Assembly: GCA_963804265.1 (NCBI GenBank)
Contig: CAWDPZ010000011.1
Span: 2,242 to 66,241, forward strand
Source of the DNA: an uncultured Acidimicrobiaceae bacterium
Lineage (GTDB): Bacteria > Actinomycetota > Acidimicrobiia > Acidimicrobiales > Bog-793
Direction: 5' to 3'
Length of the DNA: 64,000 nucleotides
Below are positions 9,912 through 53,576 of this stretch, in pieces. The position numbers were made by a program, and so were the translations under genes. Each line of letters starts with the position of its first letter. The stretch's first letter is position 1. The notes under the pieces were generated by a model. The model was given only the letters and a program-made list of their open reading frames with translations, searched no databases and was not told the origin of the DNA.

Positions 9912-10820
9912 CAGGCCGACAGCCCGACCACGTCCCGGACCTCGAGCGGCAGGCCCGCCACAGCCCGTCCCGCGACCGCCACCGCCGGCCCCGGCGCGGT
10001 AGCGGTCGCCAGCGCCGGGCCGGCCTGAGCCGGGTCTCCCGCCAAAGCTCGGGCAGTAGGCCTGGAAGGCGCAGTAGCGGCACAGCCCGGAGGGGTTCGG
10101 CCGGAAATCGTCCTGACTGCATGCCCTTTCGATGGCGGCCCAGACGCCGAGCGCACGCTGGCGGGTGCCCCGCATGGCCTGATCGGTGGGCGACGCGGAG
10201 ATGACGACACGGTCCCGGAGATAGATGAGGCGGACAGCCGCCGGCCTCCGGCCGAGCTCGGCTTCGCACATGAGGGCGTACATCTGGACGCCGCCGAGGC
10301 GCGATCTCGACTGCTCGTGGCGGGGGGCCCGGCCGGTCTTGTAGTCGACGACGACAAGGTTGCCGTCGTCCAGCTCGTCGAGGCGGTCGATTATCCCGCG
10401 GACGGTGACACCGTCGATGTCCGTGCTCAGGCTCATCTCGAGGCCAACGGCCCTGACGGCATCGGGGTCCTCGAGCTCGAAGTAGCGGTCCACCAGCTCT
10501 CGGGCATCGGCGAGGAAGGCGGCGCCCGCGGCCTCGTCGAGCCCGAGCCCGGCGAGCTCGTCCCCGTCCTGCAGCTCCTGCCAGGCACGCTCGAGGCTCG
10601 CCTGTGCGGCTGTCCTGCTCCTCGAGCCGTTTGCGTGCTCGGCGAAGAGAAGCTCGAGCGCCCGATGGACGAGCGTGCCCTTCAGGGCGGCCGGCGAAGG
10701 CGGCTCCGGCAGGTGCTCGACGACCGAGAAGCGGAACGCCAGCGGGCAATTCGTGAAGGCGGTGATCTTCGACGGCGAAAGGGTGCTCGGCAATTCCAGT
10801 TCGGTCGCTGTGGGGGCCAT
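9911..10820 (-). CDS. PD-(D/E)XK RecB/Cas4-like nuclease family protein, frame broken near 10036
   Basis: SPSKITAFTNCPLAFRF, GIIDRLD...VVDYKTG and a C-terminal Cys cluster (CRYCAFQAYCP) are present. After FGG the conserved reading continues in ORF 9911..10357, which stops at 9911-9913. Confidence 0.7.
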
Positions 10821-21990: not shown

Positions 21991-22602
21991 AGTCGCCGAG
22001 GCGGCGACTGGCAGGCCAGGACCCGAGCGACTCCGTGTCCGGGTCCGGCCCGGTGCGAGCCGCGGGCTTGTCTCCGAGATCTCAGTGGTGCCGGCTGCGG
22101 AGAGCTTCTCCGGCTCGCCCGGCTCGCCTGTGGTCCTGGTCCCGTTCGTCTTGGCAGGGGGCCTCGGAGGGCACAAGTGGCAGGACCGCAGCCTGCTGGC
22201 TGATCGGCGCCAAGCCCTCGGGCTCGGTAGCCATGAACAGCTTCTCCTGGTCGACGACGACCGCTACGTTCTCGAGACGAGCAGGCCAACGTCTTCGCAG
22301 CCTTCGGAGGCGTCGTGCGCACCCCGCCGCTGGACGGGCGCATCCTCGCGGGCACCACCCGCGAGCGGGTGATCAGGCTGACGCGGGCCAAGGGGCTCGT
22401 CGTTTCGGAGGAGCCCCTTTACCTCGAGGAGCTCGGCTCGGCGGAGGAGGCCTTCGTCACGAGCTCCATCAGAGGACTCTGCCCGGTCCGCTCGCTCGGT
22501 CGCGACCGCTCCTTTGAGGCCGGTCCGATCGGAGCCGTGCTCGCCGAGGACCTATGGAAAGCCTGGCACTCTGCTGACACGGGCCGGACGTGTCACCCGT
22601 GA
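21869..22602 (+). CDS. pabC: Class-IV aminotransferase-fold aminodeoxychorismate lyase, frame broken near 22285. The N-terminus probably lies further upstream.
   Basis: GVFETLLVLDGRLVDLESHLGRL is present. The reading continues as LETSRANVFAAFGGVVRTPPLDGRILAGTTRE in ORF 22315..22602. Homology (AHADPALGVFET) extends upstream of the GTG in the same frame. Confidence 0.65.
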
Positions 22603-22668
22603 TGTGTGCGGTCTGCCGGGATCAGAGGTGGCTTGGCATCGTCGCCGACAGCGGTGTACAACGGTGCC

Positions 22669-24039
22669 ATGGCCATTGCAACGGTGTACCCGTACACGGG
22701 TGAGACCCTCAAGTCCTTCGAGCCTCACGACGATGCGGAGGTCGAGCGGCGGATAGCGCTTGCCGACAGCGCCTACCGCTCGTACCGCAAGACGACTTTC
22801 GCCGAGCGGGCAAAGCTCTGCCGCGCGACTGGCCGACATCATCGAGGCGGACCAGCCCGAGCTCGCCAAGACGATGACGCTCGAGATGGGAAAGCCCGTC
22901 GTCCAGGCCCGCAACGAGATCGCGAAGTGCTTCGGCGTGCTGCGCTACTACGCCGATCACGGCGAGGAGATGCTAGAGACGAGCCCGTCGCCGGCACTGC
23001 CGCCAAGAAGGGGTCGTACATCAAGTACCAGCCGATCGGCCCGGTGCTGGCCGTGATGCCCTGGAACTTCCCGATGTGGCAGGTGATCAGGTTCGCGACC
23101 CCGGCCTTCATGGTCGGCAACGTCGCTCTTTTGAAGCATGCCTCGAACGTGCCCCAGGTGGCGCTCTACATCGAGGACGCGGCCCGGCGGGCCGGGTTCC
23201 CCGAGGGCGTCTTCCAGACGCTCCTCGTGGGCGGCGACCGGGTGAAGCCGATCCTGGAGGACGACCGTGTCGTCGCCGCCTCCGTGACCGGCAGCGAAGG
23301 CGCAGGGCGGTCGGTTGCCTCCATCGCCGGCAACGCCATCAAAAAGACGGTGCTCGAGCTCGGCGGGGCGGACCCGTTCATCGTCATGCCGTCGGCCGAC
23401 ATCGACCGGGCGGTCGAGATCGGCGTCTGGGCGCGCATCCAGAACAACGGCCAGAGCTGCATCGCCGCCAAGCGCTTCATCATCCACGAGTCGATCGCGG
23501 ACGAGTACATGGAGCGCTACGGAGAGGCCATGTCCAAGCTCGTCGTCGGCGATCCCCTCGACGAGGCGACCCAGGTCGGGCCGTTGGCGACAGCGCAGGG
23601 TCGTGACGAGGTGAACGAGCAGGTTGCCGACGCCCTGGCGAAGGGCGCCAAGTGCCTCTGCGGCGGCGAGACCGTGAGCGGTCAGGGATGGTTCGTCCAG
23701 CCGACCGCCTTGACCGAGCTCACGCCGGACATGCGCGTCTACCGCGAGGAGGTCTTCGGGCCGGTGGCGTCCTTCTTCCGGGCCGCCGACATCGACGAGG
23801 CGATCGCCCTCGCCAACGACACCGAGTTCGGGCTCAGCTCGAGCCTGTGGACCGAGGACGCTGCCGAGCAGAGGCGCTTTGCCGAGGACATCGAGGCGGG
23901 CCTGGTCTACTTCAACTCCATGTCCTTCTCGTACTTCGACCTGCCGTTCGGGGGCATCAAGCGCTCGGGCTACGGGCGCGAGCTCTCCTTCGCCGGGATT
24001 CGCGAGTTCACGAACACAAAGACCGTCTTCACCGACTGA
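22669..24039 (+). CDS. gabD: NAD(P)-dependent succinate-semialdehyde/aldehyde dehydrogenase, two hidden frame breaks (~22828, ~22979)
   Basis: MPWNFPMWQV, ELGGADP, NNGQSCIAAKR (catalytic Cys) and EEVFGPV motifs. Residues about 53-105 of the listed ORF are Arg-rich nonsense. The conserved segment (LADIIEADQPELAKTMTLEMGKPVVQARNEIAKCFGVLRYYADHGEEML) lies in ORF 22760..23056. Confidence 0.8.
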   Translation: MAIATVYPYTGETLKSFEPHDDAEVERRIALADSAYRSYRKTTFAERAKLCRATGRHHRGGPARARQDDDARDGKARRPGPQRDREVLRRAALLRRSRRGDARDEPVAGTAAKKGSYIKYQPIGPVLAVMPWNFPMWQVIRFATPAFMVGNVALLKHASNVPQVALYIEDAARRAGFPEGVFQTLLVGGDRVKPILEDDRVVAASVTGSEGAGRSVASIAGNAIKKTVLELGGADPFIVMPSADIDRAVEIGVWARIQNNGQSCIAAKRFIIHESIADEYMERYGEAMSKLVVGDPLDEATQVGPLATAQGRDEVNEQVADALAKGAKCLCGGETVSGQGWFVQPTALTELTPDMRVYREEVFGPVASFFRAADIDEAIALANDTEFGLSSSLWTEDAAEQRRFAEDIEAGLVYFNSMSFSYFDLPFGGIKRSGYGRELSFAGIREFTNTKTVFTD

Positions 24040-24217
24040 CCGGCGCCGTCGGGCGCACGGGCGGGAGCCTCACGGCCTCCGAGGCCCTCGGGCGCTGTAT
24101 CTGCGTGCGAGCAGGCGGGCTGTGCCTAGGTTGCCGGAGGTTCGCGCCAACAGTCGGAGTCTCGCCCTTTTGAAACTGACGCGAGCGGGCCCGGGTCGTG
24201 CCCAGCCGGCTGACACG

Positions 24218-24262
24218 AAAAAGCCCCCCACGGGACCGGCAGAGGGCCGGCCCCGTGGGGGG
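24218..24262 (-). terminator. Rho-independent terminator after the SBP gene (hairpin usable from both strands)
   Basis: CCCCCCACGGGaCCGGC-agag-GGCCGGcCCCGTGGGGGG. On the minus strand the stem is followed by CTTTTT. It lies 15 nt beyond the SBP stop. Confidence 0.65.
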
Positions 24263-24276
24263 ATGCTGCTGTCAGA

Positions 24277-25980
24277 TCACTTCGACGCGTTCCAGAGGAA
24301 GAACTGGCTGAGCGCCGTCGGGTAGATGCCCGTCACGTTCTTCTGGCTGGCGGCCAGGTAGTTGTAGAAGTACGGGAAGATGATGGGCGTCTGGTCGAGA
24401 AGGAGAGTCTCGATCTGCTTCGCGATCGCCCGCTGGCTGGAAAGGTCCGTCGCACCGACGTACTGCTTCGAGAGCTTGTCGTAGGTCGGGTCGGCGAAGT
24501 GGGCGGCATTCCAGGCACCGGACCCGGTCTTCGCGTTGTGGGTCTGCAACGGCGCCTCGAGGAACAGGTTCGGCGTCGAGCGGGCACCGTAGTCGACCAT
24601 GCTCATCTCGCCGTTGAGCCAGTCGGAGTTCCCGTAGCTCGAGCCGTAGTACTTGTTCGGCGGCTCGATCGTGAGGTTGATCGTGACACCGATCTCCGTA
24701 GCCCATGCCTTGACGAACTGGGCGAGCGTCGGCATCTCCTGGCGCTGCTCGGTGTAGAGCGGCGTCTTGAAGCCCCGGGCGTACCCGGCCTTGGCCGAGC
24801 AGCTGCTTGGCCAGCTTGAAGTTCTGAGCCCGCTGGGCCACCGGCGCCGTCGACGGGAAGACGGGGCGAAGGGGTTGTCGTTGCCGATGTCGGCGTATCC
24901 CTTGAACAGAGCCTTCACGAGACCGGGACGGTCGAGGCAAAGAGCCATCGCCTGGCGGACGTACTTGGACTTGAAGGGGCCGACGTCGCAGCGCATCGAC
25001 AGCTCGCGGTGCCCCGAGGCCTTCAGCTTGATGATGTTGTAGTTGCCGTTCAGCAGCTGCGGGCTGGAGGAGACGAAGAACTGGTCCAGGCAGTCGATCT
25101 GGTTGGCTTGGAGGGCGGCCGTCATCGGTCCCTCGGCGGCGTAGAAGCTCCACTGGATTTCCTTCGGGAGTGCCGCTGCGCCCCAGTAGTGCGGGTTGCG
25201 CACGAAGGTCGCGCCCACGTTCGGGGTGTAATTCTGCATCATGAAGTGCCCCGTGCCGACCCAGTCCGTCTGGTACTTGGTGTAGTCGTAGCCCTTCGGG
25301 ACGATGATCATCGTGTAGTTGTCGCACGAGACGGCATCGAGGAAGGCGCCGTCAGGAGCCTCGAGGTGGAAGGCGATCGTCGAGTTGTCAACCTTCACCA
25401 CGCCGTCGGGCACGAGCAGCCCGGAGAAGACCGAGAGCGCCGTCCCGGCGTTCTTCGGGTCGCACTGGCTCTTGAAGCTGTAGACGACGTCGTCGACCGT
25501 CATCGGGGTTCCGTCGTTGAACTTGACCCCTTGGCGGATCTTGAAGGTCCAGACCGTCGCCTTGGCGTTGGAGCTCCAGCTCGTCGCGATCCACGGCTTG
25601 TAGCCGAGCTGCTGGTCCGCGAGGACGAGGAACTCGCCGACGTTGCCGAGCAGTTCGAGGCCGCCTTGGTCGGCGATCGTGAGCGGGTTGATGGCTCCCG
25701 CCGGCACGATGATGCCGGCTCTGATGGTGGCGCCGGCCTTGGCCGCCGACCTCGGGGCCACCGCCGCCCTCTTCAGGCCCGGCATTCCCTTTGCCTCGAG
25801 CAGCCCGCCGAGCACCGGCAACGAGAGTCCGAAGGCCGTGCCTTTCCGGAGGAAGTCCCTCCGGGAGAGGTTGCCGGCGAGGAACTCGTCGATGACGTGC
25901 TCTTGGATCGGGCCACGACCACGCCGGAGACTGTCGATCTGCTCGTGGTTGACTTCCCTGCCCTTGTCGTTGACGTCCAT
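24277..25980 (-). CDS. ABC transporter substrate-binding protein, family 5 (peptide/nickel/opine type), Tat signal, two hidden frame breaks (~24864, ~24791)
   Basis: ATG at 25980 is preceded by GAGGGAGG. It has a twin-arginine signal (SRRDFLRKGTAFGL) and family-5 core motifs. The segment VFPSTAPVAQRAQNFKLAKQLLGQ is found only in ORF 24272..25327. Confidence 0.8.
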   Translation of the reverse strand: MDVNDKGREVNHEQIDSLRRGRGPIQEHVIDEFLAGNLSRRDFLRKGTAFGLSLPVLGGLLEAKGMPGLKRAAVAPRSAAKAGATIRAGIIVPAGAINPLTIADQGGLELLGNVGEFLVLADQQLGYKPWIATSWSSNAKATVWTFKIRQGVKFNDGTPMTVDDVVYSFKSQCDPKNAGTALSVFSGLLVPDGVVKVDNSTIAFHLEAPDGAFLDAVSCDNYTMIIVPKGYDYTKYQTDWVGTGHFMMQNYTPNVGATFVRNPHYWGAAALPKEIQWSFYAAEGPMTAALQANQIDCLDQFFVSSSPQLLNGNYNIIKLKASGHRELSMRCDVGPFKSKYVRQAMALCLDRPGLVKALFKGYADIGNDNPFAPSSRRRRRWPSGLRTSSWPSSCSAKAGYARGFKTPLYTEQRQEMPTLAQFVKAWATEIGVTINLTIEPPNKYYGSSYGNSDWLNGEMSMVDYGARSTPNLFLEAPLQTHNAKTGSGAWNAAHFADPTYDKLSKQYVGATDLSSQRAIAKQIETLLLDQTPIIFPYFYNYLAASQKNVTGIYPTALSQFFLWNASK

Positions 25981-26060
25981 GCGCCAACCTCCCTCTTGTC
26001 GTCCCTCGCCGATGCGAGACTTGTCTAAGATACTGGACAGACGTTCAGATAGACTGCTTC

Positions 26061-26073
26061 TGTTACAGTAACA
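26061..26073. promoter_or_regulatory. Perfect palindrome in the divergent SBP/IclR intergenic region (candidate operator)
   Basis: TGTTAC-a-GTAACA. Confidence 0.3.
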
Positions 26074-26130
26074 AGTCGGACGAGAATGCGCCAGAGGCGC
26101 AGTAGTTGCAGGTGATCCGAGCTCCCTTCC

Positions 26131-26980
26131 GTGCTGAAGCAGTTGCGAGGAGAGGAGGCACAATTGGAAAAGCTCGACATCCGGGCCGCTTCGACCGCTC
26201 CTGCGGTCGTGACGGCGATCAGGGTCATCGACGCCCTGGCGGCTCTTCAAGGCTCGGCCAGCCTCGACGAGCTGACGCATGCCATCGACGAGCCGCGCAG
26301 CTCTGTGCACCGCATCCTCAACACCCTCGTCGAGAGCGAGCTCCTGCAAAGACCGGGGCCGCGGGGCGGCTACCGCATGGGCCCGAAGGTGATGACCTGG
26401 GGCTCGTCGTTCCTGCGGGCCGTGAATCTCATCGACGAGTTCCGGGCCGTCGTGACGCCCATCGTCGACCGCATCGACGAGACGATGCAGCTCGCGGTTC
26501 TCGACTGGCCCGACGTCGTCTTCTTGTCGCACGTCGACTCGACGCGCCCGGTCAGGCTCGTCACCGAGGTCGGGCCGCCGTCTCCCGGCGCACGCGACGG
26601 CCGTCGGCAAGGCCCTGCTCGCTTTCTCCGGCACCTCGGCGGCCGACTGGTACCGCCACCACGAGATGCGGCGGCTCACGCCGCGCACCGCGACGACGGT
26701 CGAAGAGCTGGAACGTCAGCTCGCGAAGGCGCGGCGCCGGGGATGGGCCGAGGCGAGCCAGGAGTCCTCGGAGAACCTGACCTGCCTGGCGGCGCCGGTG
26801 CGTGCCTACGACGGCCGCGTCATAGCCGCGATGACGATCTGCGTCCCGGAGCCTTCCTTGAAGCTCTCGGATCGCCAAGCGCTCGGGCGCGAGCTCCTCG
26901 TCGGGTGCACCGAGCTCTCGCGCCAGCTCGGCGCAGAGGACGCTTCTCGATCCGGTCGTGACGCCGCAGCAACGGTCTAG
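26131..26980 (+). CDS. IclR-family transcriptional regulator, frame broken near 26575
   Basis: The HTH is SLDELTHAIDEPRSSVHRILNTLVESELL. The effector domain continues as RRLPAHATAVGKALLAFS...TICVP in ORF 26666..26980. Confidence 0.75.
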
Positions 26981-27090
26981 CCCGCAAAGGACGCTTCGCC
27001 GGGTCGCTCCTGTTGGCACACTGATCGCCTGATCGTTTCCCGGATTCGACCGCACGAGCGAGCGGTGGTTACACTCGTTTTCGAACCGCG

Positions 27091-27104
27091 TGGATGCACA
27101 TCCA
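27091..27104. promoter_or_regulatory. 14-bp perfect palindrome 30 nt upstream of the ADH start (candidate operator)
   Basis: TGGATG-ca-CATCCA. Confidence 0.3.
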
Positions 27105-27133
27105 GCCGGTGAGACATCACGGAGGTGCCGAGG

Positions 27134-28262
27134 ATGAGCACTGGTATCGAGACGCTCGCGGCTGTACTCGAAGCGCCGGGCAAGGACTTCGTCGTCGAGA
27201 CCGTGCAGCTCTCGGCGCCCGGGCCTACCGAGGTGCTCGTCCGTATCGAGGCGACCGGCGTGTGCCACAGCGACTGGAATGCCGCGACCGGTGCCTCGGC
27301 GACGCCGATGCCGGCGGTGCTCGGCCATGAAGGCGGCGGCATCGTGGAAAGCATCGGCTCGGCCGTCACTCGCGTCGCCGTCGGCGACAAGGTCGTGCTT
27401 TCCTGGCTACCGACCTGTGGCGTCTGTCCCGCCTGCATGAGAGGCGACCTGTCGCTGTGTGCCAACTCGATGACCGAGATGGGCAACGGCGCGCTGCCGA
27501 GCGGCGAGATCCGGCTCTCGAGGAACGGCTCGCCCCTCTACCACTACTCGTATCTTTCGACCTTCGCCCGCCATACCGTCGTGGACGAACGGTGCTGTGT
27601 CGTGTTACCCGCGGACGCGAACCTCGAGGTCGCCTGCCTGGTCGGCTGCGCGGTGACGACCGGTGTCGGCGCCGTGTTCAACAAGGCGAAGGTCGCGCCC
27701 GGGTCGTCCGTCGTCATCTTCGGAGGCGGGGGAGTGGGACTGTCGGCCGTCATGGCGGCGAGGTACGCGGGGGCGACGACCGTCGTTGTCGTCGATCCGG
27801 TCGCCTCCAAGCGTGAGCTCGCCACCGAGCTCGGGGCGACGGCGACCCTCGACGGGAAGGATGCGAACCTCGTCGAGGCTCTGCGTGGGCTGTGCGGTGG
27901 CGGCGCCGACTATGCCTTCGAAGCGGCGGGGCTGCCCTTTTTGGCCACGACTGCGTTCAACGCCGTCCGACCCGGCGGCATGGTCGTGCTCGTCGGAGTG
28001 CCGGCCGACGGAGAAGTGGTGTCCTTTCCCGGCAACGTGCTCGTCCGCTCCGAGAAGATCGTGACCGGGACCTTCTACGGCTCCGCCCGTCCCGCCCTCG
28101 ACATGGCCTTGATCATGCGCCTGTACGCGGACGGCAAGTTCCCCCTCGACCGCTTCGTCAGCGAGCGCTACCCGCTCGGAGGGAGTGAACGAGGCTTTCG
28201 CCGCCATGCTCGAAGGCCGAGTCGTGCGGGCTGTCCTCAAGCCATGGGAAGGAGACAGTTGA
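27134..28262 (+). CDS. Zn-dependent alcohol dehydrogenase, class-III / formaldehyde-dehydrogenase-like, frame broken near 28178
   Basis: GGAGG lies 8 nt before the ATG at 27134. Motifs are GVCHSD, GHEGGGIVESIG, the structural-Zn Cys cluster CGVCPACMRGDLSLC and GGGGVGLS. The native end (..RYPLEGVNEAFAAMLEGRVVRAVLKPWEGDS-TGA) is in another frame. Confidence 0.8.
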
Positions 28263-28756
28263 TGCTTATCGGTGAGTCTTTCGTCGGAGACGGCGTGAAC
28301 GCCGCTCATATCAACGTCGTGCTGGGGCGCCGGGACGGGCCTGTCGGCACGGCCTGGGCGAGCGCGCTCGCGACACCAAGCGCAGGGCACGCACCCTTTG
28401 TCGCCGTGGCCGCACCCGGCATACCTGTCGTTCCCCCCACCTTGTTCGTGAACAAGGCGGCCATCACCGGGACCGTGCACGGCAACATGACCTGGGGACC
28501 TGCCCAGGCGGGTGTCGCCCAAGGCGTCGGGCAGGCGCTCGACGAGTCCGTGATCGACGTCGGCGACGTGGACAACCTCGTCCTGATCGCCGCTGTCTGG
28601 GTGAACCCGAATGCGGACGACGAAGCCGAGGTCTTCCGCAACAACCAGGTCGCGACGCACGAGGCGTTGCAGAAGGCGGTGCAGGGACTTCCGAAGGCGG
28701 CCGACTTCATGGTTGCCGCCAAAGCTCCGTTCAACCCGTTCTTCAGGCCCGCCTGA
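28262..28756 (+). CDS. fae: Formaldehyde-activating enzyme (Fae) family protein
   Basis: The ATG overlaps the corrected ADH stop (TGATG) and follows GGAAGGAGA. The protein (IGESFVGDGVNAAHINVVLG...TLFVNKAAI...WGPAQAGVAQGV...LVLIAAVWVNPNADD...NPF) aligns along its whole length with Fae as I recall it from Methylorubrum extorquens. Confidence 0.8.
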   Translation: MLIGESFVGDGVNAAHINVVLGRRDGPVGTAWASALATPSAGHAPFVAVAAPGIPVVPPTLFVNKAAITGTVHGNMTWGPAQAGVAQGVGQALDESVIDVGDVDNLVLIAAVWVNPNADDEAEVFRNNQVATHEALQKAVQGLPKAADFMVAAKAPFNPFFRPA

Positions 28757-28892
28757 GAGCGACGGTCCACTTCGGATTGCCGGCGTGCCCTGGGAGCTCG
28801 GGTGTCGTTCGTGCACACCGGACGTGTCGGCGATCGCACGAGAGTCAGCCAAGGACAGGCGCTGAACGAGTAGGAAAAGGCAGGCGCTGAAC

Positions 28893-29670
28893 ATGGATAT
28901 CCGAGAGTTCTCGATGGACCTGTTCTCCCTCGCGAACAAGACGGCCATCGTCACCGGAGGCAATACCGGCCTCGGTCAGGCGTTCTCGCTCGCCCTTGCG
29001 AAGGCGGGAGCGAACCTGTTCATCCCGACTGTCATGGACGACGGAGGTGAGACAGGTCGCCTCGTCGAGCTCGAAGGGCGCAAGGCCGAGATCCTCGAGA
29101 TCGACATCACGGCCGACGGCGCTCCGAAGAAGATCGTCGAGCGGTGTGTCGCGGCTTTCGGTGCCGTGGACATCGTGGTGAACTCGGCCGGTATCTGCAA
29201 CATCGCGTCCGTGGACAGCTTCGACCGAAGCCAGTGGGACCCCATGATCGCCTTGAACCTCACGGCGGCGTTCGAGCTCAGCTACGAGGCCTCCAAGCTC
29301 ATGGTCGAGCAACGCTCGGGCAAGATCATCAACATCGCCTCCCTGTTCTCCTTCCTGGGCGGCCAGTGGTCACCGGCGTACTCGGCCACCAAGCACGGCC
29401 TCGTCGGCTTCACGAAGGCCTACTGCGACGAGCTCGCCCAGTACAACGTGCAGGTGAACGCGATCGCGCCCGGGTACTACGCCACTGCCATAACCGAGAC
29501 GACGCGCTCCAATCCCGAGACGAACCAGCGGGTGCTCGACCACATCCCCGCCGGGCAGATGGGGAGACGCGGCCGACCTGATGGGCGCCACGGTCTTCCT
29601 GGCCAGTCGCGCCTCGGACTACGTGAACGGCCACGTCCTGGTTGTCGACGGTGGCTACCTCGTCCGGTGA
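28893..29670 (+). CDS. Short-chain dehydrogenase/reductase (KduD/2-deoxy-D-gluconate 3-dehydrogenase-like), frame broken near 29557
   Basis: [12 protein letters not shown] and the YSATKHG catalytic motif. The native C-terminus ([40 protein letters not shown] at 29668) is in another frame. Alternative start: 28914. Confidence 0.75.
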
Positions 29671-29709
29671 CGCTGCCGGGGACATCGCTCGACGGAGGAG
29701 AATAGGTTC

Positions 29710-31169
29710 ATGGTGCAATCAGTTTCAGACCTGAGTCGCGAAGACATCCGACGGGGATTGGTCGAGCTCGTCGGCGAGGGCCAGGTGAACGTCGACGAGG
29801 ACGTGCTCCGTGCCTCGAGCGTCGACCGTTTCAAGAAGTACCAGGCGGTGAACGGCATCTTCCAAGGGCCCATTCCGGCGGCTGTCGTCGCCGCGAGGTC
29901 GACCGCGGACGTCGCAAAGGTCCTCCGTTTCGCCAACGAGCACAGGATCAACGTCGTGCCCCGTACCGGTATCACCTCCACAGAAGGCGGCCTCGAGACG
30001 GTCGTGGAGGACACGATCGTGCTCGACGGCTCACCGATGAGCACGATCGTTCGCATCGACCCTGTGAACATGATGGCGACGGCACAGTGCGGCGTGCCCC
30101 TCGAGGTCCTCGAGGACGCCGTCCGCCTGCAGGGGCTCACGACGGGCCACTCGCCCCAGTCCAAGCCCATCGCCCAGATGGGCGGCCTCACCGCGACGCG
30201 CTCGACCGGCCAGCTTTCGACCCTCTACGGCGGCATCGAGGACATGATCGTCGGGCTCGAGGCCGTCTTCCCGGACGGCACGATCTGCCGCGTGAAGAAC
30301 GTGCCGCGTCGAGCCGTAGGCCCGGACACGAGGCACATCGTCGTCGGCAACGAGGGCGCCCTCTGCTTCATCACCGAGGTCACAGTGAGGCTCTACCGGT
30401 ACAGGCCCGAGAACAACAAGGCTCGCGGGTTCCTCGTCGACAACATGGACGACGGCCTTGCTGTCATCCGCGAGGTCGTGACCGACGGCTTCCGACCCTC
30501 GGTGTGCCGCGTCTACTCCGAGGAGGACGCCCACCAGCATTTTGCGGACTTCCACAAGGACAAGTGCGTCCTGCTCTTCATCTGCGAAGGCCCCGAGGCC
30601 ATCGTGGCGGCCACCGTCGACGAGATCGACCGTGCCGTCGAAGGGCGTTGTTCACGAAGACGTCGATCCCGCCCGCATCGAGCGGTGGTTCAGCGACCTG
30701 AACTGGGGCATGGACAAGATCGTCGCCGAGCAGCAGTGGATGCTCGAAGGAGCACAACCTCGGGTACACGACCGAGATCTCGGCCAACTGGTCCGACATA
30801 GGCGAGATCTACAAAGCGGCCATCCACCGCATCCGCACCGAGTACCCCTATGTCGGGGACCTGACGATGCTCGGGGCCCATTCCTCGCACAGCTACCAGA
30901 CGGGCACGAACCTGTACTTCGTCTACGACTACAACATCAACTGCGAGCCGACCGAGGAGATCACGAAGTACCACATCCCACTCAACGCCATCATCGTCGA
31001 AGAAGCCTTGAGGCACGAGGGCTCGATGGTCCACCACCACGGCATCGGGAAGTACCGGACCGACTGGACCGAGCAGGAGCACGGCAGCGCCTATTACATG
31101 TTGGCCAAGCTGAAAGAGGCTTTCGACCCGAACGGCATCATGAACAAGGGCACGATCTTCAAGGCCTGA
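29710..31169 (+). CDS. FAD-linked oxidase (PCMH-type FAD_binding_4; alkyl-DHAP-synthase/GlcD-like), two frame breaks (~30640, ~30751)
   Basis: VVPRTGITSTEGG and GNEGALCFITEVT are in the first frame. VHEDVDPARIERWFSDLNWG is in the second. NLGYTTEISANW...GSMVHHHGIGKYR...FDPNGIMNKG is in the third. Confidence 0.7.
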
Positions 31170-31197
31170 GAGAGTCGTCCGCTGACTTGGGAAGGCA

Positions 31198-32630
31198 ATG
31201 GTGAAGCGATACCTGATCGGGATAGACAACGGCTCGCAGAGCACCAAGGTGTCGGTGTTCGACGAGCACGGCGCCGTCGTCTGCGAGGGTCGTCAAGCTC
31301 TCCGACCGAACGACACGCCCCGTCCCGGCGTGGTCGAGCACCCGGACGACGACCTCTGGTTCTCCATCGGTGAGGCGAGCCGGCGTGCCATGGCGGCGTT
31401 CCCGGGCGACCTCTCCGCCATCGTCGGCGTCGGGCTGTGCACGATCCGCTTTTGCCGTGCACTGCTCCGGGCGGACGGGACGCTGGCGAGCCCGGTGATG
31501 AGCTGGATGGACGCCCGCGTGTCGCGGCCTTATGAGCACAACGACCCGACCGTCCGCTACGTCACGACCTCGTCGGGGTACATAAGCCACCGGATGACCG
31601 GTCAGTTCAAGGACACCGCTGCCAACTACGCCGGCGTCTGGCCCATCAGCCAGGACAGGTGGGAGTGGCTGCGCGACGACGAGGGCTTCGCGAAGTTCCA
31701 GGTGCCGCGGGAGATGCTGTTCGAGCTCCTGATGCCGGGCGAGGTCCTGGGATCTGTCACCCCTGAGGCCGCCCGTCACACCGGCATCCCTGCCGGCCTG
31801 CCCGTCTTCGCCACGTCCAACGACAAGGCGGTCGAGGCGCTCGGGTGCGGGCTGCGCTCCTCGCGACACGCTGCTGGTCTCGTTGGGCACCTATACCGCG
31901 AGCATGACCGCGGGCCGGCGCAACGTGACGGACGCCACCAGCTTCTGGTCCAACTTCGCCTCGATCCCACGTCAGTACCTCTACGAGAGCCACGGCATCC
32001 GCCGGGGCATGTGGACGGTCAGCTGGTGGCGGGACCTGCTCGGCGAGGAGGCCGGTTCGGCGGCGCGCCGGCAGGGCGTGGCCGTCGAGAGGTACCTCGA
32101 CCTCGAGGCGGAGAAGGTGCCGGCGGGCTCGGACGGGCTCATGGTCGATCCTCGACTGGCTGGCGCCGACCGACGCCCCCTTCAAGAAGGGCTCGATCGT
32201 CGGTTTCGACGTGCGCCACGGCCGCTTCCACATCTACCGGGCGATCCTCGAGGGGATCGCTCTCACCATCTACCGGTGCGGGACGGCCATGGGCAAGGAG
32301 ACAGGCGAGAGCTACGACCGGATCGTCGTCTCCGGCGGCGGCTCGAATTCGGACGTGTTCATGCACATATTCGCCGACGTCTTCGGGATCCCGGCCCTCA
32401 GGAGCAAGATGAACAACGCCGCCGGCCTGGGCTCGGCGATCTGTGCGGCTGTCGGCCAAGGTCTCTACGGTTCGTGGGACGAGGCCATCGACGAGATGGT
32501 CTCCTGGGAGCCGCCGTTGCTCCCCGACGAGAAGAACCACGAGCTCTATCGGACGATGTCGGCCGTGTACGACGAGATCCCGGGCCTGACCGACAAGATC
32601 TTCGAGCGGTCGTACAAGATCTTCGGCTAA
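31198..32630 (+). CDS. FGGY-family carbohydrate kinase, two frame breaks (~31860, ~32152)
   Basis: IGIDNGSQSTKV is in the first frame. LVSLGTYTASM...GMWTVSWW is in the second. DWLAPTDAPFKKGSIVGF...VVSGGGSNSDVFMHIFADVFG is in the third. Confidence 0.75.
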
Positions 32631-34720
32631 GGTCGCGAACGGGAGCGTGCCACCGCCTGGGTCGCCCCGGCGTCGGCCACCTGCAGCCGGCGCAGCTCCC
32701 CGACCGGGATGTGGCAGCGCATCATGTGGTCGGGCTCGACCTCGACGAGGGGAGGCTCGGTCGACTCGCAGAGCCCGCTCGCGAGCCGCCGCGGGCAGCG
32801 CGTGTGGAAGACGCAGCCCGACGGCGAGTGTGCCGCGCTCGGGATCTCGCCCTTCAGCCGGATCCTCTCGCGGAGCGTCCCGTCGAGGCTCGGCACGGCC
32901 GAGAGCAGAGACTCGGTGTAGGGGTGATGCGGTCCGGCAAAGACCGTCTCGGCCGGTCCGTACTGCATGACGCGGCCCAGGTAGAGCACGGCGATGCGAT
33001 CGGACAGGTAGCGCACCACTCCGAGGTCGTGCGAGATGAAGACGTAGGTGACCCGCTCACGGCTCTGCAGGTCGGCGAGGAGGTTGAGGATGGCTGCCTG
33101 CACCGAGACGTCGAGGGCCGAGGTGGGCTCGTCGCAGACGAGCACGCGGGCGCCCCGGCGAACGCGCGTGCGATGGCGACTCGCTGCTTGAGTCCTCCCG
33201 AGAGCTGATAAGGGCGCAGCGGGAGATGGCGCTCCTCCATCCGAACCGAACGGATGACTTCCAGGAGGCGCCTCTCAGAGGCCTCGCCCGAGAGACCCGC
33301 CAGCTTCTTGAGCGCCCTCGTGACGATGTGCCGCACGCTGTGGCGCCTGTTCAACGCCGAGTCGGGGTTCTGGAAGACGATCTGCATCGCCTGCAGCTGC
33401 TAGCGGTCGCGCTTGGCGCACTGGGCGGCGAGCGGGACCCCCTCGAGCTCGATCACCGATCCCTCGTCCGGCACGGTGAGACCGAGCAGGACGCGGGCGA
33501 GCGTCGTCTTGCCGCAGCCCGATTCGCCCACCAGTCCGAGCGTCTCGCCCGCCTTCAGGTCGAGGTCGACCCCGACGACGGCCCGCACGTGCTCGCCGCG
33601 GACGTGGAAGGTCTTGGACACGCCGCGCAGGCGGATGACGGGCTCCTCGCTCGCGCCCGGGCTCCTCAGCTGGACCTCCTCCGGGGTCGCCCGGGGCAGT
33701 TCGGCCGCCCGGTCGTGGTAGTGGCACCGCGACGTCCGCGACGGGGAGACCTCGTACATGGGCGGAGTCTCTTCGACGGCAACGTTCGGTCGCGAGCGCG
33801 CAGCGCTTGGCGAAGACGCATCCGACGGGGACCTCCCCGGGTCCCGGGAGGAAGCCGGGAATCGTGTCGAGCCGCCCGTGGTCCTTGCGCTGCCCGCCGC
33901 GGGGGACGCATCGCAGCAGTCCGACGGTGTAGGGATGCCGGGGATTGTCGAAGATCTCACGTGCCGGGCCCTGTTCGACGAGCTCTCCCGCGTACATGAC
34001 GCCGACGCGGTCGCACATCTTCGCGATCACCGCCAGGTTGTGGCTGATGAACAGGACCGAGGTCTGGAACCTCTGACGAAGCGACGACACCAGGTCGAGC
34101 ACCTCGGCCTCGACGGTGGCGTCAAGGGCCGTCGTCGGCTCGTCGAGTATGAGCAGAGCGGGCTCCGAAGCGAGCGCCATGGCGATCATGACCCGCTGCA
34201 GCATCCCGCCCGAGAGCTGATGGGGATAGGCGTGCAGCACCCGTCCCGGATCCGCGATCTGCACCATGCGGAGCAGTTCCTCGGCCCTGGCCAGGGCATC
34301 AGCCCGCTTTGTGCCGGCCACCTCGTACACCTCGGCCACCTGGCGCCCGACTCGGATCGACGGGTTCAACGCCCGCCCCGGCTCCTGGTAGACCATCGAG
34401 ACGGTCCGCGCCCTGAATTTCCGCAGTTCGTCCTTGTTCATGGACGCCGGGTCCTTCCCGTTCACCGTCACCGAACCGGCGCTGAGGCGCCCGTTGCGGG
34501 GGAGATAGCGCGTGATGGCGAGGGCGGTCGTCGACTTGCCGCAGCCCGACTCGCCGACGAGGCCGAACGACTCCTGGCGGCCGATGGTGAACGAGACGTC
34601 GCGCAGGGCCAACCGGTCGTTGCCGCGCACGCGATATGTCACGTCGAGGTGGCTGACCTCCAGCGTCGGCGGGGTCGCTTCGACGGCGGAGACCAGGTCG
34701 GACGAGGTGGCAAGGGTCAT
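32627..34720 (-). CDS. Duplicated (two-NBD) peptide-type ABC transporter ATPase, two frame breaks (~33779, ~33149) and an in-frame TAG at 33400-33402
   Basis: Two Walker A motifs (GESGCGKST, GESGCGKTT), two signatures (LSGGMLQR, LSGGLKQR), two Walker B motifs (LILDEPT, LVCDEPT) and two oligopeptide-type C-terminal Cys motifs are spread over four listed ORFs. Confidence 0.75.
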
Positions 34721-35650
34721 TGGACGAGCACCGACTCGATCGCGTCACCGATGAGGTTGATGGCGATTATGAGCGACGCGATGGCAAGGGCGGGGAAGAG
34801 CGTCTCCCACCAGTAGCCCGCACCCAGGTACTGGTAGTTGTTGGCGATGTCCGCGCCCCAGTCCGGCGTCGGCAGCTGCACGCCGAAGCCGAGAAACGAA
34901 AGCGTCGCGATCGTGAAGATCGCGTACCCGAGGCGGACTGTGAACTCGACGATGATCGGGCCGAGCACGTTCGGGAGGATCTCCACGAACATGACGTGAA
35001 AGGCGCTCTCGTCACGAAGCCGGGCGGCGGCGAGATAGTCGAGCTCGCGCTCTTGCAGGACAGCCGCACGCACGGTCCTCGCGATGATGAGGGCGAAGAC
35101 GAAGCCGATCACCATGACGAGCGTGAGGGTGCTCGGGCCGACGGCGACGACGAAGAGGAAGGCCACGATGACGATGGGAAGGGACAGGGCGGCGTCCACG
35201 AGCCGGCCGACGATCATGTCGAAGACACCGCGCAGATAGCCCTGGGCGAGGCCGATCGTCGTGCCGACCACGGTGCCCGAGCAGCGTGGCGAGCGGGGCG
35301 ATCTCGAGGATGTCGCGGGAGCCGACGATCACCCGCGAGAGAATGTCCTCGCCGGCGTTGTTGGTACCGAACCAGTGGGCGGCCGAGGGGGCGAGATTGC
35401 CGCTCAAGATGTCCGGCGTGGTGGCGTTGAAGGGGACGAACGAGCCGCCGAAGATGGCGCAGACGATCCACCAGAGAAGGATCAACGTCCCGACGATGAA
35501 CGTCTTGGAGCGGAGGAGCTGGCGGAGCTGTTCCAGGCGAATCCGCCCCACCGAGACGTCCAGCGCCCCGGACGCTCCGACCGGCGAGGCCGCGGACAGC
35601 TGGTCTGCGAGACCAGCCGCGGGAGGACCGGCGGGCTCGACCGCCGTCAT
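34717..35650 (-). CDS. ABC transporter permease (DppC/OppC-like), frame broken near 35277
   Basis: The ATG at 35650 overlaps the corrected stop of the upstream permease (ATGA). Motifs are HWFGTNNAGEDILSRV and, in ORF 34717..35271, TVVGTTIGLAQGYLRG...LDYLAAARL. Confidence 0.75.
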
Positions 35651-36602
35651 TCCGCCGCCCCCAGCCTGACGCGGGGGTTCAACAGCGTGTAGAGGATGTC
35701 CGCGATCAGCGTCGCCACGACGTAGACGATGCCGATGAACAAGCACTCCCGCCTCGAGCATCGGGAAGTCCTTGTTGTTGGCGGCATTCAGGATGAGCGT
35801 GCCGACGCCCGGGTAGGTGAAGAGCCTCTCGACCACGACGAGGCCGCCGATCAGGTACCCGGTCTGGGTGGCGATGACGGTGATCGTCGGCAGCAGCGAG
35901 TTGCGCAGCACGTGCCGCCGGATCACGACCCAGCGGGGCAGCCCCTTCAGCGTCGCCGTGCGGACGTAGTCGGAGTCGAGCGCCTCGACGGTGCCGGCCC
36001 GGGCCATCCGGGCGATGTAGCCGTAGAGGATAATCACGAGGGGAATGGCGGGAAGGATCAGGTAGCGCACCTGGGTGATGAAGGTCGACCCCGCCGGCGC
36101 GTTGGCGGTGACGGGCAGCCACTTCAGGTCTATCGAGAACAGGACGATGAGGACGACGCCGGAGACGAACTCGGGCACCGTCGACAGTGAGAGGCTCGTC
36201 GTGCTGATGAGACGGTCCAGCCACCGTCCCCGGTTCAGGGCTGCGATGATCCCGCCCAGGATGGCCGTGGGCACGACGATGACAAAGGCAAGGGCCGCCA
36301 GCTTCAGCGATCTCCCCAGGTACGGCCACAAGAAGGAGCTGACCGGTGCCTGGTACTGGTATGAAGTCCCGAGCCTGCCCGCGCACGATCCCGGTGATCC
36401 AGCTCCAGTACTGCACGACGACTGGCCGGTCGACGCCGAGCCTGTGGTCGAGTATGTCCACCGAGTGCTGGGAGGCGAAAGGCCCGAGAATCGCCCGTCC
36501 CGGGTCGCCCGGGAGCACCTGGGCGGCGAAGAAGATGATCAGGCTCAAGAGCACGAGCGTCACCAACGCCAGGCCGACTCGCTTCACGACGTAAAGCAAC
36601 AT
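35647..36602 (-). CDS. ABC transporter permease (DppB/OppB-like), two frame breaks (~36371, ~35741)
   Basis: MLLYVVKRVGLALVTLVLLSLIIF...LPGDP is in the first frame. The core with the EAA-type loop (SDYVRTATLKGLP) is in ORF 35012..36331. The tail FIGIVYVVATLIADILYTLLNPRVR is in a third frame. Confidence 0.75.
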
Positions 36603-36859
36603 CCCGGGCTCCTCCTCCCTGAATCGTGTCCCGACGTCAGCCGACGTGGTGCCGAGACCGGAGGCTAATCAGACTCCGAAGCTAGCAGGGCGATCCCGCG
36701 TTTCGCCTGTCGAAGCGCGGTCTTGGGCGCGGACGCTACGACCGATAAGATGACAATTGCTATGTATATGGCCCGACTTCGTCACGTCGCCGGGCACAGC
36801 GCAGGTACCGAGCGGTTCGCGTCGCCACCGTCCAAGGCCAGATAGGCGGACGAGCGGAC
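36603..36859. promoter_or_regulatory. Divergent intergenic region between the ABC importer and the amidohydrolase operon, with an AT-rich core at 36744-36770
   Basis: A 257-nt non-coding gap contains GATAAGATGACAATTGCTATGTATATG, embedded in otherwise GC-rich sequence. I could not assign definite -35/-10 boxes. Confidence 0.3.
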
Positions 36860-47743: not shown

Positions 47744-47765
47744 CTCACTTCACGCGGTCCCCGCC

Positions 47766-47812
47766 TTGACGCTCTTGGCCGGGCATTTTAGACTCACATA
47801 GTAGAACTATGT
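47766..47812 (+). promoter_or_regulatory. Putative promoter (-35 TTGACG, 17-nt spacer, -10 TAGACT) followed by a perfect palindrome overlapping the IclR start codon
   Basis: TTGACG lies at 47766-47771 and TAGACT at 47789-47794. ACATAGT-aga-ACTATGT at 47796-47812 contains the ATG at 47809. This implies a leaderless or near-leaderless transcript. Confidence 0.4.
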
Positions 47813-49287: not shown

Positions 49288-49309
49288 CGGGCTACGGTCG
49301 AGACCAGCC

Positions 49310-53458: not shown

Positions 53459-53576
53459 CGTAGGAGCGGGCTCGTCGTCATGCGGTCGCCTTCAGGTCAC
53501 GAGTCCGGCCCGGCGTCGGGCAGACAGCGGCCGACGGCGGTATTTTCGCGAACCACGATCGAGGAGGGGGCCACTC

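What the first reader, a model, noticed from the sequence alone, without database searches (positions are those of the whole stretch)
27134..28756. Fae homologue translationally coupled to a class-III-like Zn-ADH in a mycothiol organism
Once the frame break near 28178 is corrected, the ADH stop and the fae ATG overlap (TGATG), with GGAAGGAGA just upstream. In the six-frame track the two appear as one 543-aa fusion ORF. Canonical Fae condenses formaldehyde with tetrahydromethanopterin. No H4MPT-pathway gene is visible here, and actinobacteria normally oxidise formaldehyde as the mycothiol adduct through a class-III ADH. An Fae-fold protein paired with such an ADH could therefore be a formaldehyde-activating enzyme for a different carrier, thiol or folate. 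That would parallel Gfa for glutathione. The many methyl-releasing enzymes nearby would generate formaldehyde.
Basis: inference. Interest (0 to 1): 0.6.

Follow-up and report, generated by a model that had tools for sequence, protein, structure and literature searches.

The report
Fae–alcohol dehydrogenase pair without methanopterin
A peat-soil actinobacterium carries a conserved, overlapping gene pair for a zinc alcohol dehydrogenase and a formaldehyde-activating-enzyme (Fae) homologue, although it and its relatives lack the methanopterin cofactor pathway that Fae normally serves, so this widespread, unstudied Fae branch probably loads formaldehyde onto another carrier, most likely folate.

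Summary
The 543-aa ORF is an assembly artefact. One extra G at 28178/28179 fuses a 375-aa Zn-ADH (27134-28262) to a 164-aa Fae (28262-28756). Five relatives lack that G and keep an invariant GGAAGGAGA...TGATG junction.

- No Mch, Ftr/FhcD or RFAP synthase was found in this genome, in 21 other Fae-carrying Acidimicrobiales, or in five cultured carriers. One actinobacterium with a full H4MPT island served as positive control.
- The organism probably makes mycothiol. It already has a separate true MscR, and the Fae-linked ADH misses the cut-offs of every class-III-type family.
- This ADH orthogroup was found only beside Fae (2 of 151 genomes).
- The Fae branch has at least 531 loci, including Streptomyces, Nocardioides, Cryobacterium, Meiothermus and Myxococcota. 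It more often follows a 2OG oxygenase or sits in a betaine-type transporter operon.
- It keeps catalytic His22 and Gln88 but changes a fixed set of other residues.

Best reading: Fae captures formaldehyde on a non-H4MPT acceptor, most likely tetrahydrofolate rather than mycothiol, with the ADH as its dedicated partner. No enzyme assay exists.

The parts
27134..28262 (+). Zn-dependent medium-chain alcohol dehydrogenase, 375 aa once one extra base is removed. It has catalytic Zn ligands C/H/C, four structural-Zn Cys, GGGGVG and an Asp for NAD. It belongs to an orthogroup found only next to Fae.
28178..28179 (+). Site of the single extra G (GG here, G in five relatives) that shifts the ADH frame into the Fae frame and creates the 543-aa pseudo-fusion.
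28247..28255 (+). Shine-Dalgarno-like GGAAGGAGA inside the end of the ADH gene, 6 nt before the Fae ATG. Invariant in all six sequences aligned.
28260..28264 (+). TGATG stop/start overlap of ADH and Fae.
   Evidence: gene calls in relatives
28262..28756 (+). Fae homologue, 164 aa, intact. It belongs to the H4MPT-less actinobacterial branch with the signature TWG[PA]AQAG / AAVWVNP.
26131..26980 (+). IclR-family regulator directly upstream. It is frame-broken in the window near 26571 and intact (271 aa) in relatives.
28914..29670 (+). KduD-like short-chain dehydrogenase, one frame break here.
29710..31169 (+). FAD-linked oxidase (FAD_binding_4 + FAD-oxidase_C). Its nearest solved relative is alkyl-DHAP synthase. 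Two frame breaks here.
31201..32630 (+). FGGY-family kinase with no equivalog assignment. Two frame breaks here.
32627..36602 (-). Opp/Dpp-type ABC importer: a fused double ATPase and two permeases. Several frame breaks here.
24277..25980 (-). Family-5 solute-binding protein of the importer, divergent from the IclR gene.
22669..24039 (+). Aldehyde dehydrogenase (716 bits against the succinic-semialdehyde dehydrogenase model, cut-off 730). It stays with the gene set in the shuffled locus L006.

Best explanation
Two separate genes form a dedicated two-enzyme module inside an IclR-controlled catabolic island for an imported, still unknown substrate.

The Fae homologue belongs to a large branch of the Fae family that lives in organisms without tetrahydromethanopterin. 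It keeps the catalytic histidine and the pterin-site glutamine of canonical Fae but has a re-fitted pocket. I infer that it condenses free formaldehyde with a different N5/N10 carrier, most likely tetrahydrofolate, giving 5,10-methylene-THF. That product would enter the FolD/Fhs route present in this genome.

The NAD-type Zn-ADH is an orthogroup found only next to Fae. It is its obligate partner, most likely the step that makes formaldehyde, by oxidising methanol or a hydroxymethyl group released from the imported substrate. Less likely, it oxidises a hydroxymethyl adduct made by Fae. Tight translational coupling would keep the scavenger in step with the formaldehyde source.

Shown: gene structure, conservation of the pair, absence of H4MPT markers, distinctness from MscR, and the residue pattern. 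Inferred: formaldehyde as substrate, THF as acceptor, and the direction of the ADH step.
For: - Separate genes with a conserved junction.
- The pair is kept in both orders with overlaps or gaps of 20 nt or less in 13 of 101 loci. 13 of 14 ADH-linked Fae fall in one starred clade.
- Among 151 Acidimicrobiales, the ADH orthogroup appears only in the two genomes where it abuts Fae (85% and 64% identity). All other best hits are 45% or less.
- H4MPT markers: Mch in 0 of 22 Fae-positive Acidimicrobiales, Ftr in 0 of 151, RFAP synthase in 0 of 5. Mch and RFAP synthase were in 0 of 5 cultured carriers.
- Positive control: G296 has Fae (234.6 bits) within an Mpt_N/FTR/FhcA/Mch island.
- His22 and Gln88 are invariant. 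Subfamily-specific changes are D24N, three F-to-W, Q-to-H and HW-to-NP.
- Other contexts of the branch fit capture of a reactive C1 or aldehyde. A 2OG/Fe oxygenase lies directly upstream in 20 loci. In 36 loci an enolase-superfamily (MR_MLE) gene directly follows Fae, typically within an OpuA-type (betaine-type) importer / aldehyde dehydrogenase / Fe-ADH operon; the OpuAC binding-protein gene lies directly upstream of Fae in 16 of them.
- THF-centred C1 genes lie on the same contig: a GCV_T-domain dehydrogenase, MttB, RACo, and Fhs 3 kb past the window. FolD is elsewhere.
- The branch occurs outside mycothiol producers, in Meiothermus and Myxococcota.
- Spontaneous formaldehyde-THF condensation is too slow in vivo, and no enzyme for it is known (PMC7073904).
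Against: - No folate enzyme is a recurrent neighbour of Fae in 101 loci.
- Fhs is not enriched among Fae-positive Acidimicrobiales (6 of 22 against 40 of 151).
- Context A, the commonest, has no obvious formaldehyde-producing enzyme within six genes. Its enolase-superfamily member resembles acid-sugar dehydratases. Formaldehyde may therefore not be the substrate at all.
- The own genome is only 65% complete.
- No biochemical data exist for any member. Even the Fae2 and Fae3 paralogues of methylotrophs have no known role (PMC5023235).
Confidence: 0.45

Rival explanations
1. The Fae homologue speeds formation of S-hydroxymethyl-mycothiol (or another thiol hemithioacetal), and the adjacent Zn-ADH oxidises that adduct. 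This would be a Gfa/GSH-FDH-like pair built from different folds.
For: The ADH orthogroup exists only beside Fae, as expected if it uses Fae's product. The ADH's nearest named families are the Rxyl_3153/NDMA, class III and MscR models. The organism probably makes mycothiol: MshA- and MshC-like genes are near cut-off, and MscR is present.
Against: - All three family scores are far below cut-off. By solved structures the ADH is as close to class I as to class III enzymes.
- A true MscR is encoded elsewhere in G000 (two broken pieces, 322 + 322 bits) and in G129 (599 bits).
- Most members of the Fae branch have no adjacent ADH. Some sit in Meiothermus and Myxococcota, which are not known to make mycothiol (established knowledge).
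- The pterin-site residues His22 and Gln88 are retained.
Confidence: 0.15
2. The Fae-fold protein has drifted to a non-formaldehyde role. It might be a hydro-lyase or cyclase on another aldehyde or imine intermediate of these catabolic operons, or a small-molecule binding or chaperone subunit. The ADH would then simply be a pathway dehydrogenase acting on the same metabolite.
For: The branch sits in at least three different catabolic contexts, rich in alcohol and aldehyde dehydrogenases, that lack a clear formaldehyde source. A coherent set of substitutions at otherwise conserved positions is present. Fae paralogues in methylotrophs show no C1 phenotype (PMC5023235).
Against: The protein passes the NCBIfam equivalog-domain cut-off for Fae. 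It keeps the acid catalyst His22, Gln88 and the GE..G.G, NK and GPAQ motifs. The 2OG-oxygenase pairing in 20 loci is a classic setting for formaldehyde release by oxidative demethylation, though that is an inference.
Confidence: 0.25
3. Canonical function after all. The organism obtains or makes H4MPT (or a close analogue) by genes missed here, and Fae feeds an H4MPT route.
For: The own genome is only 65% complete. The Mpt_N search had a silent control.
Against: Sixteen of the Fae-positive Acidimicrobiales are at least 90% complete and none has Mch or Ftr. A closed one-contig genome (G150) and a complete Streptomyces chromosome lack Mch and RFAP synthase. The same searches found a full island in G296.
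Confidence: 0.05
4. The 543-aa ORF is a genuine ADH-Fae fusion protein in this strain.
For: The frame is open as assembled. One 446-aa ADH-Fae protein exists in the database (P0124).
Against: - A single extra G in a GG run is absent from all five relatives.
- The 28 residues before Fae are out-of-frame ADH sequence.
- There is about one frame break per kb in neighbouring genes. Same-population short-read contigs have 1-base indels at other breaks.
- Longer Fae proteins are mostly singletons (one, P0127, has 5 member sequences) that mirror whatever gene lies next door.
Confidence: 0.05

Closest known systems
Formaldehyde-activating enzyme Fae of Methylorubrum extorquens AM1 (PDB 1Y5Y/1Y60; EC 4.2.1.147)
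   Same: Same family and length: 99 bits, E 2e-27 over residues 3-161, and above the Pfam and TIGR03126 cut-offs. The catalytic His22, Gln88, and the GE..G.G, NK and GPAQ motifs are kept.
   Different: The host lacks Mch, Ftr/FhcD and RFAP synthase. The gene is not in an H4MPT island but is coupled to a Zn-ADH. Systematic substitutions are present: D24N, F-to-W at three sites, Q-to-H, HW-to-NP. The Pfam score is 164 bits against 235 for the canonical-type Fae of the H4MPT-positive actinobacterium G296.
Gfa plus GSH-dependent formaldehyde dehydrogenase (class III ADH) of Paracoccus denitrificans
   Different: Gfa is an unrelated fold; only Fae was found in the Pfam scan. The ADH here scores 284 against a cut-off of 544 for the class III model. 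Gfa's own catalytic role is dispensable in vivo (PMC8879981).
MscR / mycothiol-dependent formaldehyde dehydrogenase (TIGR03451)
   Same: Same MDR Zn-ADH architecture, about 36-37% identity. Present in the same genomes.
   Different: It is a separate gene elsewhere: G000 C25:71325-72396, G129 599 bits, G150 639 bits. The Fae-linked ADH scores 236-267 bits, has CHSDWN instead of CHTDLHY, and has a substrate-loop insertion of about 11 residues.
Archaeal Fae-Hps bifunctional enzyme
   Same: Fae physically or genetically tied to the enzyme that makes or uses free formaldehyde.
   Different: The partner here is a Zn-ADH rather than hexulose-phosphate synthase. It is not a fusion, and there is no H4MPT. 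NF009833 scores 110.6 against a cut-off of 274.
Fae2/Fae3 paralogues of proteobacterial methylotrophs
   Same: Fae homologues with no demonstrated role. Fae3 was proposed to shuttle C1 units to or from H4F (PMC5023235).
   Different: Those occur alongside canonical Fae and a complete H4MPT pathway. This branch is the only Fae in H4MPT-less genomes.

Membership tests
Fae (PF08714 / TIGR03126 one_C_fae) | Profile score above the curated cut-offs over the whole domain | tested here: met
   PF08714 163.8 bits (cut-off 27), profile positions 1-152 of 159. TIGR03126 142.7 bits (cut-off 118.05).
Fae (PF08714 / TIGR03126 one_C_fae) | Acid catalyst His22 and pterin-site Gln88 (M. extorquens numbering; roles recalled from the abstract of Acharya et al. 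2005, paper not readable here) | tested here: met
   H16 and Q82 align with them and are invariant in 15-17 subfamily sequences.
Fae (PF08714 / TIGR03126 one_C_fae) | Host makes and uses tetrahydromethanopterin (Mch, Ftr/FhcD, RFAP synthase present) | tested here: not met
   None found in G000 (65% complete), in 21 other Fae-positive Acidimicrobiales, or in 5 cultured carriers. A positive control island was found in G296. The Mpt_N search was uninformative on the first five genomes because its control was silent.
Fae (PF08714 / TIGR03126 one_C_fae) | Catalyses formaldehyde + H4MPT to methylene-H4MPT | not testable with these tools
   Needs an enzyme assay.
Class III ADH / S-(hydroxymethyl)glutathione dehydrogenase (TIGR02818) | Equivalog score above cut-off | tested here: not met
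   283.9 bits for the intact orthologue against a cut-off of 543.95. PDB hits to class I and class III enzymes are equally good, 236-245 bits.
MscR / S-(hydroxymethyl)mycothiol dehydrogenase (TIGR03451) | Equivalog score above cut-off; the single such gene of the genome | tested here: not met
   262.4 bits against a cut-off of 512.9. Separate genes reach 599 and 639 bits in G129 and G150. In G000 the gene is in two pieces of 322 bits each.
Rxyl_3153 / NDMA-dependent (nicotinoprotein) ADH subfamily (TIGR03989) | Subfamily score above cut-off | tested here: not met
   318.6 bits against a cut-off of 440. This is the best-scoring named model but is still below threshold. Mycofactocin genes were not searched.
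Medium-chain Zn-dependent dehydrogenase (PF08240 + PF00107) | Both domains, catalytic Zn ligands Cys/His/Cys, four structural-Zn Cys, GxGGxG and an acidic residue for NAD | tested here: met
   Both domains score above cut-off. C44, H65, C172, C95, C98, C101, C109, G197-G202 are invariant and D221 nearly invariant in alignment A3.
Gfa (glutathione-dependent formaldehyde-activating enzyme, PF04828) | GFA domain | tested here: not met
   The Pfam scan of the 164-aa protein returns Fae only. Any resemblance is functional analogy, not homology.

The most novel reading that the evidence does not exclude
This Fae branch is the missing enzyme that condenses free formaldehyde with tetrahydrofolate. With its obligate Zn-ADH partner it forms a compact methanol/formaldehyde-to-methylene-THF module that needs neither methanopterin nor a thiol. 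The evidence does not exclude a variant in which the ADH directly oxidises a Fae-made hydroxymethyl adduct.
Probability: 0.3. Interest if true: 0.8.

Novelty: new variant of a known kind. Interest (0 to 1): 0.6.

Why it matters
Fae is treated as a marker of methanopterin-linked C1 metabolism, and databases name these proteins 'formaldehyde-activating enzyme' or '5,6,7,8-tetrahydromethanopterin hydro-lyase'. Here a branch with at least 531 loci sits in genomes where the cofactor's pathway was not found. It includes culturable Streptomyces, Nocardioides, Cryobacterium and Actinomadura. So the annotation is probably wrong in substance, and metagenomic inferences of H4MPT-dependent methylotrophy drawn from fae hits in Actinomycetota would be misleading.

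If the acceptor is THF, this would be the first enzyme for a reaction that is too slow spontaneously to support growth. Synthetic-methylotrophy work has had to do without such an enzyme (PMC7073904). The question can be tested directly with existing strains and assays.

The Fae-dependent ADH orthogroup adds a second uncharacterised enzyme with a clear genetic partner.

Tried and rejected
- Complex prediction of ADH (A3) with Fae (A4): score 0.00, no verdict. This is not evidence either way.
- Structure paper of Fae (doi 10.1074/jbc.M412320200) and the original Fae paper (PMC111405): not held. Cofactor-contact residues could therefore not be mapped.
- Literature searches for actinobacterial or Acidimicrobiia Fae: nothing relevant.
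- Mpt_N (MtdA/B) search on five genomes: the control rang nowhere, so it is uninformative. The model does work, since it hit G296's island.
- Fhs co-occurrence with Fae: no enrichment, 6 of 22 against 40 of 151.
- Search for the 2OG oxygenase partner in the own genome: no hit.
- Read laying: the best runs hold at most 40% of the words and are contigs, not the source reads.
- Natural ADH-Fae fusion: only one singleton (P0124), rejected as a likely frame-error product.
- My first ORF caller missed Fae in 45 of 102 loci. It was redone with Fae anchored.
- The idea that the FAD oxidase/SDR/FGGY trio degrades a glyceryl (methyl) ether, releasing methanol for the ADH, fits the alkyl-DHAP-synthase similarity. 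It has no further support and is left as speculation.
Full report
**What is in the sequence**

ORF 27125-28756 is open for 543 aa. It contains an MDR Zn-ADH (ADH_N + ADH_zinc_N) followed by a full Fae domain (PF08714 160-164 bits; TIGR03126 142.7 against a cut-off of 118.05). The stretch between them (GGSERGFRRHARRPSRAGCPQAMGRRQL) is out-of-frame ADH. Read one base further on from 28179, it becomes EGVNEAFAAMLEGRVVRAVLKPWEGDS*.

A nucleotide alignment with five relatives shows exactly one extra base in the window, a G at 28178/28179. The segment GGGAAGGAGACA(G/C)TTGATG is invariant. So the ADH (27134-28262, 375 aa after correction) ends in a TGA that overlaps the ATG of the 164-aa Fae (28262-28756). 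The sequence GGAAGGAGA lies 6 nt upstream of that ATG. In relatives the two genes are called separately, as 375/378 aa and 164 aa with a one-base overlap.

**Why the fusion is an artefact**

- Against intact orthologues from contig L002, almost every gene between 20.4 and 38.3 kb is split into two or three frames: pabB, IclR, SDR, FAD oxidase, FGGY kinase, the ABC ATPase, both permeases and the amidohydrolase.
- Short-read contigs of the same population, about 97-98% identical and from three to four independent peat or wetland runs, differ from the window by 1-base indels. The sites are 22828, 22974, 24795, 24865, 26571, 30640 and 30745.
- The nearest named relatives are long-read 'MFD' MAGs. 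Some of their contigs show the same kind of breaks in other genes (L042).
- Longer Fae-containing proteins in the 5.8-billion-protein set are mostly singletons (one, P0127, has 5 member sequences) that mirror the neighbouring gene: ADH-Fae, Fae-MR_MLE, 2OG-Fae and HIBADH-Fae.

The row for 28178 itself was not printed. The verdict on that base therefore rests on the orthologue alignment.

**Organism and cofactors**

The window is contig C11 of a 3.54-Mb, 65%-complete MAG of peat Acidimicrobiaceae.

| Marker | Where searched | Result |
|---|---|---|
| Fae | 151 Acidimicrobiales species genomes | 22 positive, 16 of them at least 90% complete |
| Mch | same 151 | 1 positive (G107), which is Fae-negative |
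| Ftr/FhcD | same 151 | 0 |
| RFAP synthase | G000 + four Fae-positive relatives, one a closed contig | 0 of 5 |
| Mch, RFAP synthase | Streptomyces sp. NBC_01092, Nocardioides szechwanensis, Cryobacterium mannosilyticum, Actinomadura alba, Meiothermus granaticius | 0 of 5 each |
| Fae / Mch | 401 Actinomycetota | 12 / 2; only G296 has both |

In G296, Fae scores 234.6 bits. It sits in a textbook island with an Mpt_N dehydrogenase, a pterin-binding protein, a CitG-like gene, FhcA-like and FTR genes, and Mch. That island is the positive control: the searches do find the pathway when it exists. It also shows that canonical-type Fae scores far higher than the H4MPT-less branch (122-177 bits).

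Mycothiol is probably made here.
- MshA-like genes (387-415 bits, cut-off 462) and MshC-like genes (399-419 bits, cut-off 485) stand well clear of their paralogues in four relatives. They occur as broken copies in G000.
- A true MscR equivalog is present in G129 (599 bits) and G150 (639 bits). In G000 it lies at C25:71325-72396 as two pieces of 322 bits each.

**The ADH**

It has every MDR hallmark but belongs to no named equivalog. The intact orthologue scores 319/440 for TIGR03989, 284/544 for class III and 262/513 for MscR. It is equally distant from class I and class III structures. Compared with MscR it carries CHSDWN instead of CHTDLHY, and it has a longer substrate loop.

In the 151-genome sample its orthogroup occurs in only two genomes, G000 (85% identity) and G129 (64%). 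In both it abuts Fae. Every other best hit is 45% identity or less. The ADH therefore looks dependent on Fae, while the reverse is not true.

**The Fae branch**

Patterns specific to the branch found at least 531 loci among species-representative genomes. They include Streptomyces, Nocardioides, Marmoricola, Actinomadura, Cryobacterium, Subtercola, Nanopelagicaceae, Rubrobacterales, Gaiellaceae, Thermoleophilia, Meiothermus and Myxococcota.

Neighbour clustering over 101 loci gives three recurrent settings.

| Context | Arrangement | Loci |
|---|---|---|
| A | IclR; OpuA-type ABC importer; Fae; enolase-superfamily (MR_MLE) enzyme; aldehyde dehydrogenase; HIBADH-like; Fe-ADH | MR_MLE directly after Fae in 36; OpuAC directly before Fae in 16 |
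| B | HxD-type 2OG/Fe oxygenase directly upstream of Fae | 20, mostly Acidimicrobiales and Myxococcota |
| C | Zn-ADH adjacent to Fae, in either order | 13 |

Thirteen of 14 ADH-linked Fae (the window included) fall in one well-supported clade.

Within context C, the closest relatives keep the whole island: family-5 binding protein, IclR, ADH, Fae, KduD-like SDR, alkyl-DHAP-synthase-like FAD oxidase, FGGY kinase, Opp-type ABC importer and aldehyde dehydrogenase. A 74%-identity relative has the same genes shuffled, with the order Fae then ADH.

**Residues**

The window protein was aligned with M. extorquens Fae and with the canonical-type Fae of G296. The branch keeps His22 and Gln88 (H16 and Q82 here, invariant). 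It also keeps the GE..G.G, NK and GPAQ motifs.

It differs consistently at six places:
- D24 becomes N.
- F becomes W at three sites, including TWGPAQ for (L/M)FGPAQ and VWV for VFI.
- Q becomes H five residues before the conserved GPAQ.
- IHWEA becomes VNPxA.

The roles of His22 (acid catalyst) and Gln88 (cofactor site) are recalled from the abstract of the 2005 structure paper, which I could not read here.

**Interpretation**

Keeping the catalytic and pterin-site residues, while the cofactor's pathway is missing and the branch spreads across hosts with different thiols, favours a universal N5/N10 carrier. I take that carrier to be THF. The pocket substitutions would be the re-fit.

The genomic setting fits. 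The same contig carries MttB and RACo corrinoid-methyltransferase genes, a GMC oxidoreductase, ETF, and a GCV_T-domain (THF-binding) demethylating dehydrogenase. Formate-THF ligase lies 3 kb past the window, and FolD is elsewhere in the genome.

Several points count against this reading.
- No folate gene is a recurrent Fae neighbour.
- Fhs is not enriched in Fae-positive genomes.
- Context A shows no obvious formaldehyde source.

The thiol model is weakened by the separate MscR, the failed family tests and the branch's taxonomic spread. The strict ADH-needs-Fae pattern keeps an adduct-oxidising role for the ADH alive.

My probabilities for the Fae substrate and acceptor:

| Reading | Probability |
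|---|---|
| Non-H4MPT formaldehyde capture, all acceptors | about 0.65 |
| – THF as acceptor | about 0.4-0.45 |
| – thiol as acceptor | about 0.15 |
| Non-formaldehyde role | about 0.25 |
| Hidden H4MPT | about 0.05 |

A genuine ADH-Fae fusion is a separate question about gene structure; I put it at about 0.05.

**Comparison with what is known, and novelty**

By profile and motif the protein is a member of the Fae family. It fails the family's physiological premise, which is an H4MPT-using host. The pairing works like Fae-Hps or Gfa/GSH-FDH, in that an activator is tied to a formaldehyde enzyme. It is not a member of either system.

The full-text library held nothing on actinobacterial Fae. 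Fae2 and Fae3 of methylotrophs remain functionless. No enzyme is known for the formaldehyde-THF condensation.

I class the pair as a new variant of a known kind, of moderate to high interest. Culturable carriers and an existing E. coli selection strain make the question directly testable.

Noticed in passing
L021-L039, L088, L093, L094, L097, L106, L114, L119, L121 (for example L030:8955-9746 upstream of Fae at 9733-10230): In 20 loci, mostly Acidimicrobiales and Myxococcota, Fae directly follows a 230-310-aa 2OG/Fe(II) oxygenase. It is HalD/PhyH-like with an HxD motif, so a hydroxylase rather than a halogenase. It may be an oxidative demethylase that releases formaldehyde. Its only PDB hit is weak (Halogenase B, 23 bits).
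   Followed up: partly
L087:1456-11294 (Cryobacterium mannosilyticum) and about 35 similar loci (Subtercola, Nocardioides, Streptomyces, Nanopelagicaceae, Actinomadura, Meiothermus): The commonest setting of this Fae branch is: IclR; OpuA-type (betaine-type) ABC importer; Fae; acid-sugar-dehydratase-like enolase-superfamily enzyme; aldehyde dehydrogenase; HIBADH-like dehydrogenase; Fe-ADH. In some Streptosporangiaceae a urocanase follows. The pathway is unknown.
   Followed up: partly
L130 (G296:C4:406000-425900): An actinobacterium in the phylum sample carries a complete H4MPT-type island: an Mpt_N dehydrogenase, a pterin-binding DUF6513 protein, canonical-type Fae (234.6 bits), CitG-like, FhcA-like, FTR, and Mch (read in two frames). 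It also has a second, divergent Fae (93 bits) elsewhere. This is rare for the phylum: 2 of 401 genomes have Mch.
   Followed up: partly
G000:C25:71325-72396 (outside the window): The genome's true mycothiol-dependent formaldehyde dehydrogenase (MscR) is split into two frames, each scoring 322 bits. This is another sign of indel errors across the assembly.
   Followed up: no
window 46742-63999 and G000:C11:69216-70898: A THF- and corrinoid-centred methyl-group island lies here: non-Pyl MttB (broken), RACo/RamA-like activase, DUF1638, a GMC (choline-dehydrogenase-like) oxidoreductase, ETF, and a FAO_M + GCV_T dehydrogenase that runs off the window end. Formate-THF ligase lies 3 kb further on.
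   Followed up: partly
window 29710-31169; L002:11536-12993: By sequence, the FAD-linked oxidase of the island is closest to eukaryotic alkyl-dihydroxyacetone-phosphate synthase (4BBY, 157 bits), not to glycolate or D-lactate oxidases (103 bits or less). It travels with a KduD-like SDR and an FGGY kinase. That trio would fit phosphorylation, oxidation and ether exchange of a glyceryl-ether-like substrate.
   Followed up: partly
P0127, P0131 (HIBADH-Fae), P0125, P0126 (Fae-MR_MLE), P0128, P0132 (2OG-Fae), P0124 (ADH-Fae): Database proteins that fuse Fae to its neighbour exist for each context. All are singletons except P0127, which has 5 member sequences and might be a genuine HIBADH-Fae fusion.
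   Followed up: no
G107 (Acidimicrobiales sample): One Acidimicrobiales genome has two full-length Mch genes (342 and 339 bits) but no Fae and no Ftr hit. The genome is 89% complete with 3% contamination, so contamination is possible.
   Followed up: no
window 22000-37000: Frame breaks are dense here, about one per kb. Same-population short-read contigs carry 1-base indels at seven of the break sites, so the breaks look like local consensus errors (perhaps low coverage or strain mixing) rather than pseudogenes.
   Followed up: partly
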